Sequence record: NC_028925.1
DNA length: 64,000 nt
Strand: one strand, 5' to 3'
Source of the DNA: Escherichia phage vB_EcoM_VR25
Below, one piece after another: positions 5,327 through 45,408 of the stretch. The position numbers were made by a program, and so were the translations under genes. Every line of letters begins with the position of its first letter. The stretch's first letter is position 1. The notes beneath the pieces are model-generated. The model had not been told where the DNA came from. It saw only the letters and a program-made list of their open reading frames with translations, and ran no database searches.

Positions 5327-5707
5327 TTATTCCTTAAAGTGTGCTTTCAACATCTGGAAAACTGACCAGGCTTCTTCATTATTACTAATGGTGATTTTAG
5401 TCAATGGGAATGCAGTGATTTCTGGAGCTTCAGTTTCTTCAGCGTCAGGTACACCATCTTCATCGCCGTCATCTTTTTCTTCTTCAAAGAAATGGAATTC
5501 CTCTTCTGTTATGAATAGACTCTCCATCCCGCCAGTTGACAATTCTATTTTATACACATCGCCACCTTCAATTTTGACTGGTCTAAACCCTTCGCCATTG
5601 ATTATAGCATCAGCTATATTATCATTATCCGTGCATAACAAACGGAATCTACTTTCAGAAACATTGTCTTTAAAATAATACCACTTATCAGTTTCAAATT
5701 TAGACAT
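5327..5707 (-). CDS. hypothetical acidic protein, about 126 aa
   Basis: Internal ATG forms an ATGTCTAA overlap with the stop of the upstream gene; the N-terminal extension in the track is probably spurious. Confidence 0.5.
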   Translation of the reverse strand: MSKFETDKWYYFKDNVSESRFRLLCTDNDNIADAIINGEGFRPVKIEGGDVYKIELSTGGMESLFITEEEFHFFEEEKDDGDEDGVPDAEETEAPEITAFPLTKITISNNEEAWSVFQMLKAHFKE

Positions 5708-5924
5708 TATAAATCTCCTTCCAAAAATCTGTACCATCTTCTGACTCTTCGCGGAACAAAGCATAGCTTGGTAGCTGTGCGTCTTTATTTTCATACACAT
5801 AAATGATATCAGTTGTGCAAAGAAACTCATTGATGTTTTTCTTAACAATCACTTTATCACTTTCAGCAGTGTCCCAAAACTCTTCAGCGGTCAGGGAAGT
5901 GGTCACACAATCTTCATTGAACAT
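5700..5924 (-). CDS. hypothetical protein, 74 aa
   Basis: ORF in the compact gene array, coupled to the downstream gene. Confidence 0.45.
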   Translation of the reverse strand: MFNEDCVTTSLTAEEFWDTAESDKVIVKKNINEFLCTTDIIYVYENKDAQLPSYALFREESEDGTDFWKEIYNV

Positions 5925-13562: not shown

Positions 13563-13901
13563 TTAATCACACGAGCTGGAAGACGAATCGCAGCTTCCTG
13601 AATCATAGGATGAATAAGATGAATCACCAGTCCACGAACTAACCGCGGCCGCAGTCACCACAATCGAAGTAGTATCGATATGACTTGTACGGCGAGCATC
13701 CAGATGTTCTTTTAACTTTTTAGAATTCAACGGCAATGCACCTACGCCAACATTACCAGCTTTTTCTGGTTGACGAATAACTTCTTCCATCATACCATCA
13801 CCCATGTAAACATATTCTCTTAGTTTTACATCCGATGGCGCGATAGGAACTACACCTTCACCTGGTTTAGTCTTGAATAAATTCTTGAGCCAACTAATCA
13901 T
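13563..13901 (-). CDS. hypothetical protein, 112 aa, Ser-rich C-terminal tail
   Basis: N-terminus MISWLKNLFKTKPG paralogous to 13368-13562; ends SSYSSYDSGSCDSSSSSCD. Confidence 0.45.
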   Translation of the reverse strand: MISWLKNLFKTKPGEGVVPIAPSDVKLREYVYMGDGMMEEVIRQPEKAGNVGVGALPLNSKKLKEHLDARRTSHIDTTSIVVTAAAVSSWTGDSSYSSYDSGSCDSSSSSCD

Positions 13902-14115
13902 AGGAAACCTCGTTTAAATTCAACTTTACCATCATCACAACGGATTTCAATATTGAACAACGGATTTCAATATTGAATTCTAAAGAATCATCATCGTGCA
14001 TCATGAATGAATGTACGATAACCTCATCAAACACACCCAGGCCATACTTAAAATGGACATCATGAGCAATAATTTCATCTAAAGCTTTGTTTGGTTTAAT
14101 CCAACGGTTTAACAT
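13894..14115 (-). CDS. hypothetical protein, 73 aa, C-terminus altered by a 20-bp tandem duplication
   Basis: Direct repeat at 13938-13977 shifts the frame; the single-copy frame would end in a TGA overlapping the next ATG. Confidence 0.4.
   Translation of the reverse strand: MLNRWIKPNKALDEIIAHDVHFKYGLGVFDEVIVHSFMMHDDDSLEFNIEIRCSILKSVVMMVKLNLNEVSYD
13938..13977. repeat. perfect 20-bp direct tandem duplication (caacggatttcaatattgaa x2)
   Basis: Two adjacent identical 20-mers read directly from sequence, inside ORF 13894-14115. Confidence 0.9.
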
Positions 14116-14169
14116 AGTATTCTCCTCTGTAATTGAAATAATTATACCATCTCTATTAAAAGCAAAAAA

Positions 14170-14462: not shown

Positions 14463-14678
14463 TTACGCATATTTCTTATCAATATAAAAATGACCGCCAC
14501 CTTTGATAAAGACCCAGAATAGATTTCTATCGTCTGTATCCCGACAGTAAAAATCATCTAACTGGAAATAGTTTTCTTCAGGGAATTCAAGATGTCGGCC
14601 GAGTTCTATTGCATCAGAACCGAACGCTTTAGTAGCGGGACGACCGTCATCGTCCCATTTCTTGAAATTGAATTTCAT
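14463..14678 (-). CDS. hypothetical protein, 71 aa (position of soc.1)
   Basis: ORF in the array. Confidence 0.45.
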   Translation of the reverse strand: MKFNFKKWDDDGRPATKAFGSDAIELGRHLEFPEENYFQLDDFYCRDTDDRNLFWVFIKGGGHFYIDKKYA

Positions 14679-14887
14679 TTTGAGTGCTCAGCAATCAGTT
14701 TTAAAGTCTCTTCATTAACCCAATCGAACATGTGCATATGGTCGGATTTAACCGTAATCAATTGAGTAATATGACGGAGCTGATTAGCTAAGAGCTCTTC
14801 AACGAGCTCGTGGTCAGCATTTTTAATTAACCATTCTGCTCTCTTCTTACGAGCTTTCTTAAGCTGACGTTTATTTAAACGAGACAT
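14675..14887 (-). CDS. hypothetical basic protein, 70 aa (position of soc.2)
   Basis: ATGA/TAATG-coupled ORF. Confidence 0.45.
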   Translation of the reverse strand: MSRLNKRQLKKARKKRAEWLIKNADHELVEELLANQLRHITQLITVKSDHMHMFDWVNEETLKLIAEHSK

Positions 14888-38305: not shown

Positions 38306-38776
38306 TTAATCATGTTTCCACACCCCATCGGTATTTGACCAAAGTCGCTGATTATCCGACCCTCGCCATAGCTTTTTAGTCGGAAGATTTTTCTCATACT
38401 TCCCATCAATAATAACATCAACATATTTAATCATTTCTAGTTGTTTAATATCTTCAAACTTATATCCTGTCCACAGCCAAATGCTTTTATTGGGATAAAG
38501 ATTTTTAATAGTTTGAACCACAGAGTGAATAACATCTCGGTTATCGGGATAGAGAGGGTCTCCTCCAGTTATAGTTAATCCTTCTATATAATCATTATTC
38601 AAACATTCAATTAATTGTTCTAGTGTTTCACCAGTGAATGGAACGCCATTTCTAGCATTCCATGTTGATTTATTATAACACCCTTCGCATTTATGCAAAC
38701 AACCTGTAACGAAAAGAACGGTCCTGCACCCAGGACCATTAATAAAATCGCAAGGATAAATTCTATCATAATTCAT
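38306..38776 (-). CDS. nrdG: anaerobic ribonucleotide reductase activating protein NrdG (radical SAM), 156 aa
   Basis: CxxxCxxC cluster motif (CLHKCEGC); ATGA-coupled to nrdD. Confidence 0.9.
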   Translation of the reverse strand: MNYDRIYPCDFINGPGCRTVLFVTGCLHKCEGCYNKSTWNARNGVPFTGETLEQLIECLNNDYIEGLTITGGDPLYPDNRDVIHSVVQTIKNLYPNKSIWLWTGYKFEDIKQLEMIKYVDVIIDGKYEKNLPTKKLWRGSDNQRLWSNTDGVWKHD

Positions 38777-40590
38777 TGGTGTTTAACCCTATGCATGATT
38801 TCTTTATTTTTGCCGAGATTAAATCCGCGTTCGTTCGGGTTTCCAAGATAGCCGCATGTTCTTCTTATGGTGTTCATCTTTTTGGGGTCAGTTTCTCCAC
38901 AAATAGAACAAACAAATCCGTTTTCAGTAGGAGTCATTTCATGAGTACTTCCACATGTAAAACATTTATCCACTGGCATATTAACACCAAAATAATCTAA
39001 ATGCTGTGCAGCATAATCCCATACGGTCTCAAGACCTTTTAAATTGTTTTTCATGTCAGGTAATTCAACATAAGAAATGTGACCACCTGTCGCAATGAAA
39101 TGATATGGCGCTTCATGAGAAATCTTTTCAAACGGAGTAATATTTTTTTCTACTGAAACATGGAAACTGTTAGTGTACCATCCTTTATCGGTAACATCTT
39201 TTACACTTCCATATTTTTCTGTATCGAGTTTACAGAATCGATAACACAGGTTTTCAGCAGGAGTGGAGTACAGGCTAAAAGCGAATCCGGTTCTTTCAGT
39301 CCATTGTTTAAGACAAGCATTCATTTTAGTCAAAATTTCTTGTCCAATATCACGACCGACAAGAATATTCAATTCGTGAATACCAATGTATCCTAGGGAC
39401 ACTGAACTTCTACCGTTTTTAAATAACTCAATTATATCATCGTCGGGTTTAAGACGAACCCCGAATGCACCTTCTTGGTAAAGAATAGGGGCAACAGTCG
39501 CTTTAACTCCTTTTAAGGAATTAATTCTACACATCAAAGCTTCAAAACACAAATTCATTCGTTCATTGAATAATTCAACAAATTTCTGTTCATTGAATTG
39601 CGTTCCAATATAAGAATCTAATGCAATACGAGGAAGATTCAGTGTTACAACACCAAGATTATTACGTCCATCAAGAATTTCATTACCAGTCGAATCTTTC
39701 CATACGCTCAAGAAACTACGGCAACCCATTGGAGAAACAGGAACAGATGAGCCGGTGATAGCTTTATTGTTCTTAGCTGAAATAATATCAGGATACATCC
39801 TTTTGCTTGCACACTCTAGAGCAAGCTGCTTGATATCATAGTTCGGGTCGTCTTTATAAAGATTAACACCTTCTTCAACAAACATAACAAGCTTAGGGAA
39901 AATAGGAGTTATTCCATCACGACCAAGACCTTTAATACGATTTTTCAGAATTGCTTTCTGAATCATTCGTTCAGTCCAGTCAGTTCCCGTACCAAATGTA
40001 ATTGTCACAAAAGGGGTCTGTCCGTTTGAACTAAAGAGAGTGTTTACTTCATATTCATAAGCTTGGAATGCATCATATACATCTTTTTCTGTTTTAGATT
40101 GGGCATAATTCAACGCATCAGTGATTTGCCATTTTTCTGCATCCTCAATATGTTTTGCATAGGTGCGTTTAACATAAGGAGAAAATACTTTGTCTACATT
40201 AGCAAAAGTCGTTCCGCCATATTGGTGAGAAGCAACTTGTGCAGTAATTTGTGCCATAATTGCAGTAGCAACACCAATTGATTTAGGAGTTTCAATCTGT
40301 GCATTACCGAGCTTAAATCCGTTTTCAAGCATTCCTTTTAAATCTACTAAACAACAATTAGTAAATGGAAGAGCAGGGGAATAATCAATATCATGGAAAT
40401 GAATAATTCCGCTTTCATGTGCTTTCATAATAAAAGACGCGACCATATTTTTGGCAATGTGTTTAGATACAATACCAGCCATAAGGTCCCGTTGAGTTGG
40501 AAAAACACGAGAATCTTTATTAGCATTCTCGTTTAAAAGGTCTTTATTAGTTTTATGAATCAATCCTTCAATTTCTTTTTCAATTGTCAT
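38773..40590 (-). CDS. nrdD: anaerobic ribonucleoside-triphosphate reductase NrdD, 605 aa, uninterrupted
   Basis: Glycyl-radical C-terminal motif RTCGYLG and Zn-ribbon cysteines; one continuous ORF, no intron. Confidence 0.95.
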   Translation of the reverse strand: MTIEKEIEGLIHKTNKDLLNENANKDSRVFPTQRDLMAGIVSKHIAKNMVASFIMKAHESGIIHFHDIDYSPALPFTNCCLVDLKGMLENGFKLGNAQIETPKSIGVATAIMAQITAQVASHQYGGTTFANVDKVFSPYVKRTYAKHIEDAEKWQITDALNYAQSKTEKDVYDAFQAYEYEVNTLFSSNGQTPFVTITFGTGTDWTERMIQKAILKNRIKGLGRDGITPIFPKLVMFVEEGVNLYKDDPNYDIKQLALECASKRMYPDIISAKNNKAITGSSVPVSPMGCRSFLSVWKDSTGNEILDGRNNLGVVTLNLPRIALDSYIGTQFNEQKFVELFNERMNLCFEALMCRINSLKGVKATVAPILYQEGAFGVRLKPDDDIIELFKNGRSSVSLGYIGIHELNILVGRDIGQEILTKMNACLKQWTERTGFAFSLYSTPAENLCYRFCKLDTEKYGSVKDVTDKGWYTNSFHVSVEKNITPFEKISHEAPYHFIATGGHISYVELPDMKNNLKGLETVWDYAAQHLDYFGVNMPVDKCFTCGSTHEMTPTENGFVCSICGETDPKKMNTIRRTCGYLGNPNERGFNLGKNKEIMHRVKHQ

Positions 40591-44490: not shown

Positions 44491-45408
44491 TTATTTTAAT
44501 GCTTTGATTGCAGCTTGCAATTTATTGCGTTGCGTTTCCATGTTCTTGATGCGATTCAGGACATCCTGGATACCCTTCTTCTCATCTTCAATCAGACCAT
44601 TTAAGCGGTTGACTGATTCCTTGATAGCATCCGCATGATAGCTCTCAATAGGCTTCATTGTTGGGTTAAAGATTTCAAGAGAGCTGGATGGCTGGACATT
44701 CCATTTGTACATATTTTTAACGTCCAGTGGTGAAATTTTGGTCTGGTCATAAGATTTAAATTGACCTGCAAATGCTGGGCCATATGCCGCAGTAGGGGTA
44801 CGTTCCATTTCTGGTTCCTTTTTCTCTTGATAAGGGGCATAAGACAAAAGATATTCTTTAGTCAATTTAATATCAATTGCTATAGTTTTAAGGAATTTTT
44901 CCGTTTGGTGGATATAATTTGTATCTTCATCAAACGTGTACGATTCAACAGCATGGCGCATATAAAACAGCGCAATACCCATAACCTCTTTAAAGTTATG
45001 ACAAAGAGCAACATCGCCCTTGGTGGTTGGTTTGAACTTAATCTGTACACCATCATTCTTGATATTGATAATCAAGTTATTGGAGTTAAAATTATAGTTC
45101 TTGATGTTAACCGGAGCTTTGCGAATACGAAATCCGCCGGCCAGAATTTCCTTGATACTCTTACGAACCGTGGCACCAAACAAAAACGCTGGGCGGCGGC
45201 AGTAATCATTCAGAGAGTTAATTCTTACAATACGTTGACCATACCCCTGGGTAGCAGAACCTGATTTGATTTTGCCAAAGTTAACCAAAGAATTCATTGC
45301 GATAAGACGAGTCACACGACCGTCATGTGGTTCATAACTACTAGCATATTCAGCGCGAGTTTTAATTTTCATATCATAGTCCAAATAATTTTTCATAAAA
45401 TTTAGCAA
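44491..45408 (-). CDS. hypothetical protein, 305 aa, C-terminal coiled coil ending AIKALK
   Basis: Long ORF; C-terminal end resembles the neighbouring genes. Confidence 0.55.
   Translation of the reverse strand: MLNFMKNYLDYDMKIKTRAEYASSYEPHDGRVTRLIAMNSLVNFGKIKSGSATQGYGQRIVRINSLNDYCRRPAFLFGATVRKSIKEILAGGFRIRKAPVNIKNYNFNSNNLIINIKNDGVQIKFKPTTKGDVALCHNFKEVMGIALFYMRHAVESYTFDEDTNYIHQTEKFLKTIAIDIKLTKEYLLSYAPYQEKKEPEMERTPTAAYGPAFAGQFKSYDQTKISPLDVKNMYKWNVQPSSSLEIFNPTMKPIESYHADAIKESVNRLNGLIEDEKKGIQDVLNRIKNMETQRNKLQAAIKALK

What the first reader, a model, noticed from the sequence alone, without database searches (positions are those of the whole stretch)
13894..14115. Perfect 20-bp tandem duplication shifts the reading frame of a small gene
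caacggatttcaatattgaa occurs twice in direct tandem at 13938-13977 inside ORF 13894-14115. Twenty is not a multiple of three. Without the duplication the protein would end ...EIRCDDGKVEFKRGFL and its TGA would overlap the ATG of the next gene, the usual coupling here; with it the C-terminus becomes ...EIRCSILKSVVMMVKLNLNEVSYD. This is either a recent slippage mutation inactivating or remodelling the gene, or an assembly artefact.
Basis: seen in the sequence. Interest (0 to 1): 0.5.

Follow-up and report, generated by a model that had tools for sequence, protein, structure and literature searches.

The report
Frameshifting 20-bp duplication in phage mrh.2
A small, dispensable early gene (mrh.2) of the T4-like coliphage VR25 carries a private, perfect 20-bp tandem duplication that breaks its reading frame and removes a conserved C-terminal strand; this is an ordinary lesion, either a recent mutation or a finishing artefact, not a new biological system.

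Summary
The window is the first 64 kb of Escherichia phage vB_EcoM_VR25 (Gaprivervirus, T4-like), and the ORF is its mrh.2 homologue, deposited as the 73-aa protein AIZ02370.1.

All relatives examined have one copy, a 65-aa protein and an ATGA stop/start overlap with mrh.1. This covers 6 aligned phages, 32 close records and 740 records by tblastn. With one copy removed, mrh.1-mrh.2 is 100% identical to phage VR7.

The frameshift starts after residue 53. It replaces the near-invariant C-terminus (VEFKRGFL), predicted strand 3 of a helix plus three-stranded sheet (pLDDT 90), with 20 unrelated residues. T4 mrh.2 is dispensable in the laboratory, so the phage would survive.

No other gene in the window is broken. 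Sibling genomes VR20 and VR26 carry no comparable duplicates. The junction is absent from three large DNA collections.

Without reads I cannot separate a genuine recent mutation (about 0.57) from an assembly or finishing artefact (about 0.36). Interest is low.

The parts
13938..13957 (-). Copy 1 on the + strand of the 20-bp unit. On the coding (-) strand this is the second copy, TTCAATATTGAAATCCGTTG.
   Evidence: Sequence; TRF period 20, 100% identity; absent as an extra copy in all relatives.
13958..13977 (-). Copy 2 on the + strand; first copy on the coding strand. The unit starts with the perfect 12-bp palindrome TTCAATATTGAA.
   Evidence: Because of the palindrome the two copies form a new 12-bp stem with an 8-nt loop (DNA -9.2 kcal/mol, z -3.6, against -1.3 for single-copy VR7).
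13894..14115 (-). Frameshifted mrh.2 ORF as deposited (73 aa, AIZ02370.1 / YP_009209768.1). Residues 1-53 are native and residues 54-73 are out of frame. The new stop TAG is at 13894-13896.
   Evidence: PHROG 1873 match over residues 1-61 only; alignment A2.
13898..13937 (-). Remnant of the native mrh.2 3' end (DDGKVEFKRGFL plus TGA), now out of frame. The native TGA at 13898-13900 overlaps the mrh.1 ATG at 13899-13901 as ATGA.
   Evidence: tblastn of VR7 and VR26 Mrh.2: residues 1-53 in frame -2 and residues 47-65 in frame -1, with 96-100% and 100% identity; alignment with relatives.
13563..13901 (-). Downstream gene mrh.1 (112 aa, DUF7206), intact, with its own Shine-Dalgarno sequence GAGG 8 nt upstream of the ATG. 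The new mrh.2 stop lies 5 nt inside it.
   Evidence: Pfam PF23836, E 3.7e-35. The protein is identical to VR7 Mrh.1 (P0017), with no DNA mismatches to VR7.
14113..14127 (-). mrh.2 start codon (14115-14113) and Shine-Dalgarno sequence GAGGAG (14127-14122), unchanged relative to the relatives.
   Evidence: Sequence; invariant columns in alignment A1.

Best explanation
A genuine, very recent 20-bp tandem duplication arose in the mrh.2 gene of phage VR25 and became the majority sequence of the stock that was sequenced. It shifts the frame after codon 53. The ribosome then reads 20 unrelated codons and stops at a TAG 5 nt inside mrh.1. The product lacks the conserved C-terminal strand (VEFKRGFL) of a small helix plus three-stranded-sheet protein, so it is most probably non-functional or strongly impaired. 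The phage tolerates this because mrh.2 is an accessory early gene that is dispensable in laboratory growth. mrh.1 keeps its own ribosome-binding site, so polar effects should be small.

Shown: the duplication, its uniqueness, the frame change, the conservation of the lost motif, and the dispensability of the T4 orthologue. Inferred: that the lesion exists in the phage DNA rather than only in the assembly, that the product is inactive, and how the duplication arose.
For: The duplication is perfect and far beyond chance. The window is VR25 and the 73-aa product is what was deposited. The relatives VR7, VR26, TH15, TH54, VR20 and SP18 have one copy, a 65-aa protein and the ATGA overlap. None of 32 close records has two copies. 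740 phage records encode a homologue, and in all of them at least 80% of the query is covered. The C-terminal residues V58, F60, R62, G63, F64 and L65 are invariant among intact homologues. The AlphaFold2 model of intact Mrh.2 has pLDDT 90.3, with strand 58-64 as the third strand of the sheet. mrh.1 and mrh.2 are otherwise 100% identical to VR7, so the event is young. The assembly otherwise looks clean: mrh.2 is the only gene split across two frames, and the 20-nt insertion is the only isolated frame-breaking indel. The sibling genomes VR26 and VR20 from the same submission have no frame-breaking tandem duplicates and no untrimmed terminal overlaps. T4 mutants with 35-526 bp deletions at mrh.2 are viable (PMC8262927).
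Against: No reads or independent isolate confirm the two-copy state. The junction is in none of three large DNA collections and the product is a singleton. Only 1 nt (T) of microhomology flanks the unit, whereas T4 rearrangement junctions typically use 3-13 nt. The single-copy sequence has no significant hairpin that would promote slippage. By inference, twenty bases is also a typical k-1 overlap (k=21) or primer length.
Confidence: 0.57

Rival explanations
1. Assembly or finishing artefact. The phage DNA has one copy, and the second copy was created when two sequence ends overlapping by 20 bp were joined without trimming. Possible routes are the ends of a circular-permuted contig re-oriented to start at rIIA, a k-1 overlap from a k=21 graph, or a gap-closing amplicon join.
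For: The duplication is perfect, unique to this record and seen nowhere else. There is only 1 nt of flanking microhomology. The surrounding 0.5 kb is identical to VR7. The record does start at rIIA, as re-oriented T4-like genomes do. The link to a 20-bp overlap or primer length is inference, not a tool result.
Against: The two sibling genomes from the same accession series, VR20 and VR26, have no comparable duplicate anywhere in 170 kb each and no terminal overlap. No other indel of artefact type breaks a gene in the 64-kb window. The depositors annotated the 73-aa ORF as it stands.
Confidence: 0.36
2. The two-copy state is genuine and functional. One version is a remodelled Mrh.2 with a new C-terminal strand. 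Another is a reversible on/off switch through gain and loss of the repeat. A third is a new 12-bp mRNA hairpin that tunes translation of mrh.1, or a recoding event that restores the native frame.
For: The duplication creates a perfect 12-bp stem with an 8-nt loop that the single-copy sequence lacks. A low-confidence single-sequence model places a strand at 59-66 of the new tail. In the shifted frame AAT_TTA_AAC puts the heptamer U_UUA_AAC in phase for a -1 slip (sequence).
Against: There is no conservation: 0 of 740 homologue-bearing records show it. The mutant model is poor (pLDDT 59.8). A -1 slip at U_UUA_AAC would restore only the last four residues (RGFL). No stop codon or take-off/landing arrangement of the T4 gene 60 type is present. 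The 121-nt RNA fold is not more stable than shuffles (z -0.47). The invariant motif is lost.
Confidence: 0.05

Closest known systems
T4 Mrh.2 family (PHROG 1873; PF26878 in precomputed annotation), an 8-kDa early protein of unknown function encoded between soc and mrh.1
   Same: The first 53 residues are 100% identical to VR7 Mrh.2. The genomic position is the same (soc terminator, mrh.2, mrh.1, srh), as are the start codon and Shine-Dalgarno sequence.
   Different: The conserved C-terminal 12 residues, including VEFKRGFL, are replaced by 20 out-of-frame residues. The protein is 73 aa instead of 65-71 aa. The stop lies 5 nt inside mrh.1 instead of forming the ATGA overlap.
Spontaneous short tandem-duplication frameshift mutations, a classical mutation class known from phage T4 rII and lysozyme genetics (my own knowledge, not tested here)
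   Same: Perfect head-to-tail copies, a length that is not a multiple of three, located in a dispensable gene and absent from close relatives.
   Different: Only 1 nt of flanking microhomology. T4 junctions in PMC8262927 use 3-13 nt. Those are deletions, so the comparison is indirect.
Untrimmed-overlap joins in genome assemblies (contig-end or circularisation artefacts)
   Same: An exact duplicate of assembler-overlap size at a single site in a re-oriented, circularly permuted genome.
   Different: No second example in the sibling genomes VR20 and VR26. Read-level evidence is unavailable.
Programmed recoding in T4-like phages (gene 60 translational bypass; -1 frameshift sites)
   Same: A frame discontinuity inside a small early gene, with a nearby hairpin and an in-phase U_UUA_AAC heptamer.
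   Different: It is not conserved in any relative. There is no stop codon at a take-off site and no matching take-off and landing codons flanking a coding gap. The slip would restore only 4 residues.

Membership tests
Mrh.2 family (PHROG 1873 / PF26878) | Significant sequence match to the family profile | tested here: met
   PHROG 1873: E 1e-27 for the 73-aa product (residues 1-61) and 1.4e-32 for the repaired 65-aa form. PF26878.1 is precomputed for P0001 and all homologues. The local Pfam copy lacks this model and gave 0 hits.
Mrh.2 family (PHROG 1873 / PF26878) | Conserved position between soc and mrh.1, same strand, stop/start overlap with mrh.1 | tested here: met
   The position is met. 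The ATGA overlap itself is lost in the deposited frame and is restored if one copy is removed.
Mrh.2 family (PHROG 1873 / PF26878) | Intact C-terminal motif VEFKRGFL (predicted strand 3) | tested here: not met
   Alignments A2 and A3: V58, F60, R62, G63, F64 and L65 are invariant in intact members and absent from the VR25 product. Structure model. The VR25 gene is therefore a disrupted allele of the family, not a normal member.
Slipped-strand tandem duplication (genuine mutation) | Perfect head-to-tail copies absent from close relatives | tested here: met
Slipped-strand tandem duplication (genuine mutation) | Short direct repeat (3 nt or more) at the borders of the duplicated unit in the ancestral sequence | tested here: not met
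   The ancestral sequence is ...TTAGAA[TTCAAT...CCGTTG]TGATG. Only a single T is shared (TRF run of 41 = 2x20+1).
Slipped-strand tandem duplication (genuine mutation) | Presence in the phage DNA itself (reads or amplicon) | not testable with these tools
   No reads are available. The exact product is not on record on any contig other than the VR25 genome.
Assembly artefact from an untrimmed overlap | Similar exact duplicates or terminal overlaps in genomes made with the same pipeline | tested here: not met
   VR26 has only period-12 and period-18 in-frame repeats. VR20 has only a native 11-mer repeat that VR26 shares. Neither record has a terminal overlap.
Assembly artefact from an untrimmed overlap | No read spans both copies | not testable with these tools
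Programmed recoding (bypass or -1 frameshift) | Recoding site conserved among orthologues, with downstream frame conservation | tested here: not met
   All orthologues are single-frame: 740 records, and every one of the 40 sampled rows is a single piece. None has two copies.

The most novel reading that the evidence does not exclude
The duplication is genuine and acts as a reversible switch. A perfect 20-bp tandem repeat can be lost precisely by slippage or recombination, so the phage population could toggle Mrh.2 off and on. At the same time, the new 12-bp hairpin 45 nt upstream of the mrh.1 start could alter translation of the downstream gene. Together these would give a selectable accessory-gene polymorphism in a low-temperature T4-like phage.
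Probability: 0.03. Interest if true: 0.4.

Novelty: already known. Interest (0 to 1): 0.12.

Why it matters
It matters little biologically. At most, one laboratory phage carries a null or altered allele of a dispensable early gene of unknown function. It has practical value as a curation flag. Protein AIZ02370.1 / YP_009209768.1 (RefSeq) is a frameshift product and should be annotated as disrupted or re-verified. Its C-terminal 20 residues should not be used in family alignments. If the mutation is genuine, VR25 is a ready-made natural Mrh.2 C-terminal mutant for anyone studying this conserved uncharacterised protein. It also provides one example of a T4-like tandem duplication with almost no junction homology.

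Tried and rejected
1. **Junction searches.** I searched for the 40-nt two-copy junction in IMG/VR, JGI metagenomes and GTDB genomes and found 0 hits.
2. **Contig look-up.** An exact look-up of the 73-aa product on contigs found nothing on record.
3. **VR25 record.** VR25's own accession (I guessed KP007361) is not in the phage collection.
4. **Systematic pipeline artefact.** I scanned whole VR26 and VR20 for perfect tandem repeats. Only in-frame or native repeats turned up. The VR20 period-11 repeat in gp52 looked suspicious, but VR26 shares it with no gap.
5. **Error-prone assembly.** The 83 gap events against VR7 are almost all compensating pairs in divergent stretches. Only mrh.2 is split across frames.
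6. **Hairpin-promoted slippage in the ancestral sequence.** Single-copy VR7 DNA folds at only -1.3 kcal/mol, no better than shuffles.
7. **Recoding.** An in-phase U_UUA_AAC heptamer exists in the shifted frame, but a -1 slip there restores only RGFL. There is no gene 60-like take-off and landing arrangement. Rejected as coincidence.
8. **Internal TTG-initiated ORF 13898-13960 (MFNIEIRCDDGKVEFKRGFL).** It could re-express the C-terminal fragment, but it has no ribosome-binding site and is not credible.
9. **Function of Mrh.2.** The local Pfam copy gave no hit, the PHROG family has unknown function, and Foldseek against PDB found nothing below E 0.39.
10. **Literature.** No paper on VR25 sequencing methods was retrievable. 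A bare 'mrh.2' search returned unrelated papers, and the T4 genome review is not held.
11. **Mutant structure.** The single-sequence AlphaFold2 model has pLDDT 59.8 and is not informative.

Full report
**What is there**

On the + strand, caacggatttcaatattgaa occupies 13938-13957 and again 13958-13977. Tandem Repeats Finder reports period 20, 2.0 copies and 100% identity with score 82, the best array in the window. A direct scan for perfect tandem repeats of period 10-300 finds no other in the 64 kb. From base composition, the expected number of perfect period-20 tandems is 1.5e-7. The repeat lies in the minus-strand ORF 13894-14115, which is 73 aa and ends ...EIRCSILKSVVMMVKLNLNEVSYD.

**Identity of the locus**

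- The window is the beginning of a T4-like genome, rIIA onwards, and is about 97% identical to Escherichia phage vB_EcoM_VR7, genus Gaprivervirus.
- An exact look-up shows that the 73-aa product is AIZ02370.1 / YP_009209768.1 of Escherichia phage vB_EcoM_VR25. The downstream 112-aa protein is VR25 gp025, which is identical to VR7 Mrh.1. The window is therefore VR25.
- The gene is the homologue of T4 mrh.2. In VR7, VR26, VR20 and SP18 the annotated order is soc, mrh.2 (198 nt, 65 aa), mrh.1, srh, with a 4-nt ATGA overlap between mrh.2 and mrh.1.
- mrh.2 matches PHROG 1873, of unknown function. It carries PF26878 in precomputed annotation, although the local Pfam copy has no hit.
- mrh.1 is DUF7206.
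- A strong intrinsic terminator follows soc at 14190-14167 on the minus strand. mrh.2 has a GAGGAG Shine-Dalgarno sequence.

**Comparison with relatives**

- An alignment of the window with VR7, VR26, TH15, TH54, VR20 and SP18 shows one 20-column gap in all six relatives and nothing else unusual. VR7 is identical to the window at every other position of the gene.
- With one copy removed, the whole of mrh.1, mrh.2 and the upstream intergenic stretch is 100% identical to VR7. The six local mismatches all lie in soc.
- A short-query search found 32 records. Each matches with a span of 66 bp or less in the record, against 86 in the query, so each has one copy.
- The 40-nt junction is absent from IMG/VR, JGI metagenome contigs and GTDB genome contigs.
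- The 73-aa protein is a singleton cluster, while the 65-aa form belongs to a cluster of 48 members seen on many contigs.
- tblastn with the repaired protein finds homologues in 740 phage records, including T4, T2, T6 and the RB phages. All cover at least 80% of the query, and every one of the 40 sampled rows is a single piece.

**Consequence for the protein**

- Among intact homologues, V58, F60, R62, G63, F64 and L65 are invariant and E59 and K61 nearly so. Only the VR25 product lacks this motif.
- An AlphaFold2 model of intact Mrh.2, built from the VR26 sequence with 11 homologues, is confident (pLDDT 90.3). It shows a helix at 10-23 followed by strands at 31-39, 45-52 and 58-64.
- The frameshift begins after residue 53, so it removes the third strand of a three-stranded sheet and substitutes 20 unrelated, more hydrophobic residues. 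I infer loss or severe impairment of function.
- A single-sequence model of the mutant is too poor to argue otherwise (pLDDT 59.8).
- No solved structure resembles the fold (best Foldseek E 0.39), so the function of Mrh.2 remains unknown.
- In T4, CRISPR-escape mutants with 35-526 bp deletions at mrh.2 are viable, and the 39-56 region is classically non-essential (PMC8262927). A null allele is therefore compatible with a viable phage.
- The new stop (TAG, 13894-13896) lies 5 nt inside mrh.1. mrh.1 keeps its own GAGG ribosome-binding site, so I expect little polarity. This is inference.

**Real mutation or artefact?**

Evidence for a genuine mutation:
- The rest of the window is clean. Of 83 alignment gaps against VR7, nearly all are compensating pairs within divergent stretches. 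The 20-nt insertion is the only isolated frame-breaking indel in locally identical DNA.
- Of about 170 VR7 or VR26 ORFs with a hit in the window, mrh.2 is the only one split into two near-perfect pieces in different frames.
- I tested whether the depositors' pipeline leaves untrimmed overlaps. VR26 has only period-12 and period-18 in-frame repeats. VR20 has only an 11-mer repeat in gp52, which is native because VR26 has the same sequence without a gap. Neither record has overlapping ends.

Evidence for an artefact:
- The lesion is seen only in this one record.
- The copies are perfect.
- The unit is flanked by just 1 nt of microhomology. T4 junctions in PMC8262927 use 3-13 nt.
- The ancestral single-copy sequence has no significant hairpin to promote slippage.
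- By inference, 20 nt is a typical k-1 overlap or primer length, and the genome has been re-oriented to start at rIIA.

I put a genuine mutation at about 0.57, an artefact at about 0.36, and any functional or regulated reading at about 0.05.

**Side effect of the duplication**

The unit begins with the perfect palindrome TTCAATATTGAA. Two copies therefore create a new 12-bp stem with an 8-nt loop (-9.2 kcal/mol as DNA, z -3.6, with no shuffle as stable). VR7's single copy folds at -1.3 kcal/mol. In a 121-nt RNA context the overall fold is not exceptional (z -0.47). I regard this as a by-product.

**Recoding considered and rejected**

In the shifted frame, the codons AAT TTA AAC place U_UUA_AAC in phase for a -1 slip, but that would restore only the terminal RGFL. 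No gene 60-like bypass signals exist, and nothing is conserved in the relatives.

**Verdict**

This is an ordinary, private frameshift lesion in a conserved but dispensable early gene of a public phage genome. It is useful mainly as a curation flag and possibly as a natural mutant. Read-level data or a PCR across the site would decide between the two options.

Noticed in passing
window 14463-14887 (-): Between soc and gene 56, VR25 has two small ORFs of 71 and 70 aa. They match PHROG 5773 and PHROG 5782, labelled 'head protein' and 'virion structural protein'. VR7 and VR26 carry the homing endonuclease gene segF at this position instead, and similarity to VR7 stops at window 14463. This is a typical presence/absence polymorphism of a mobile endonuclease.
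   Followed up: partly
window 38306-40590 (-): About 2.4 kb is absent from VR7 and VR26 but present in VR25. It contains ORFs of 156 and 605 aa, the same lengths and position as the annotated nrdG and nrdD (anaerobic ribonucleotide reductase) of VR20. Identity was inferred from length and position only.
   Followed up: partly
window 14141-14165 (-): By eye, directly after the soc terminator (14190-14167) there is a MotA-box-like TTGCTTTTA at 14165-14157. Ten nucleotides further on is a perfect TATAAT at 14146-14141, upstream of the mrh.2 Shine-Dalgarno sequence. This is a candidate T4-type middle promoter for the mrh.2-mrh.1-srh unit. The sigma-70 scan did not report it.
   Followed up: no
window 13923-13950 (-): The promoter scan reports a sigma-70-like site (TTGAAA, 16-nt spacer, TAAAGT, with an extended TG) that starts inside the duplicated unit. 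The region has fewer such matches than shuffles, so it is probably chance.
   Followed up: no
L013-L016 (VR20) record position 164993-165014: There is a perfect 11-bp x2 tandem repeat (TTCTGGAACCA) inside gp52, the topoisomerase II medium subunit. It is native coding sequence (FGSRMVPE), is also present in VR26, and is not an indel. The N-terminus of VR20 gp52 differs from that of VR26 through several indels near the start (165304-165378).
   Followed up: yes
window 5442-5462: There is an in-frame 21-nt insertion relative to VR7 (GCGTCAGGTACACCATCTTCA) inside ORF 5327-5830 (-). It is not a perfect tandem duplicate.
   Followed up: no
window 45056-45110: An imperfect tandem array of period 21, 2.7 copies and 68% matches (TRF score 50). 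Not examined.
   Followed up: no
cluster of the 65-aa Mrh.2, protein P0010: Phage CJ20 annotates its Mrh.2 homologue as 110 aa (QMP18620.1), against 65 aa in the relatives. This is probably an over-extended start-codon call. Not checked.
   Followed up: no
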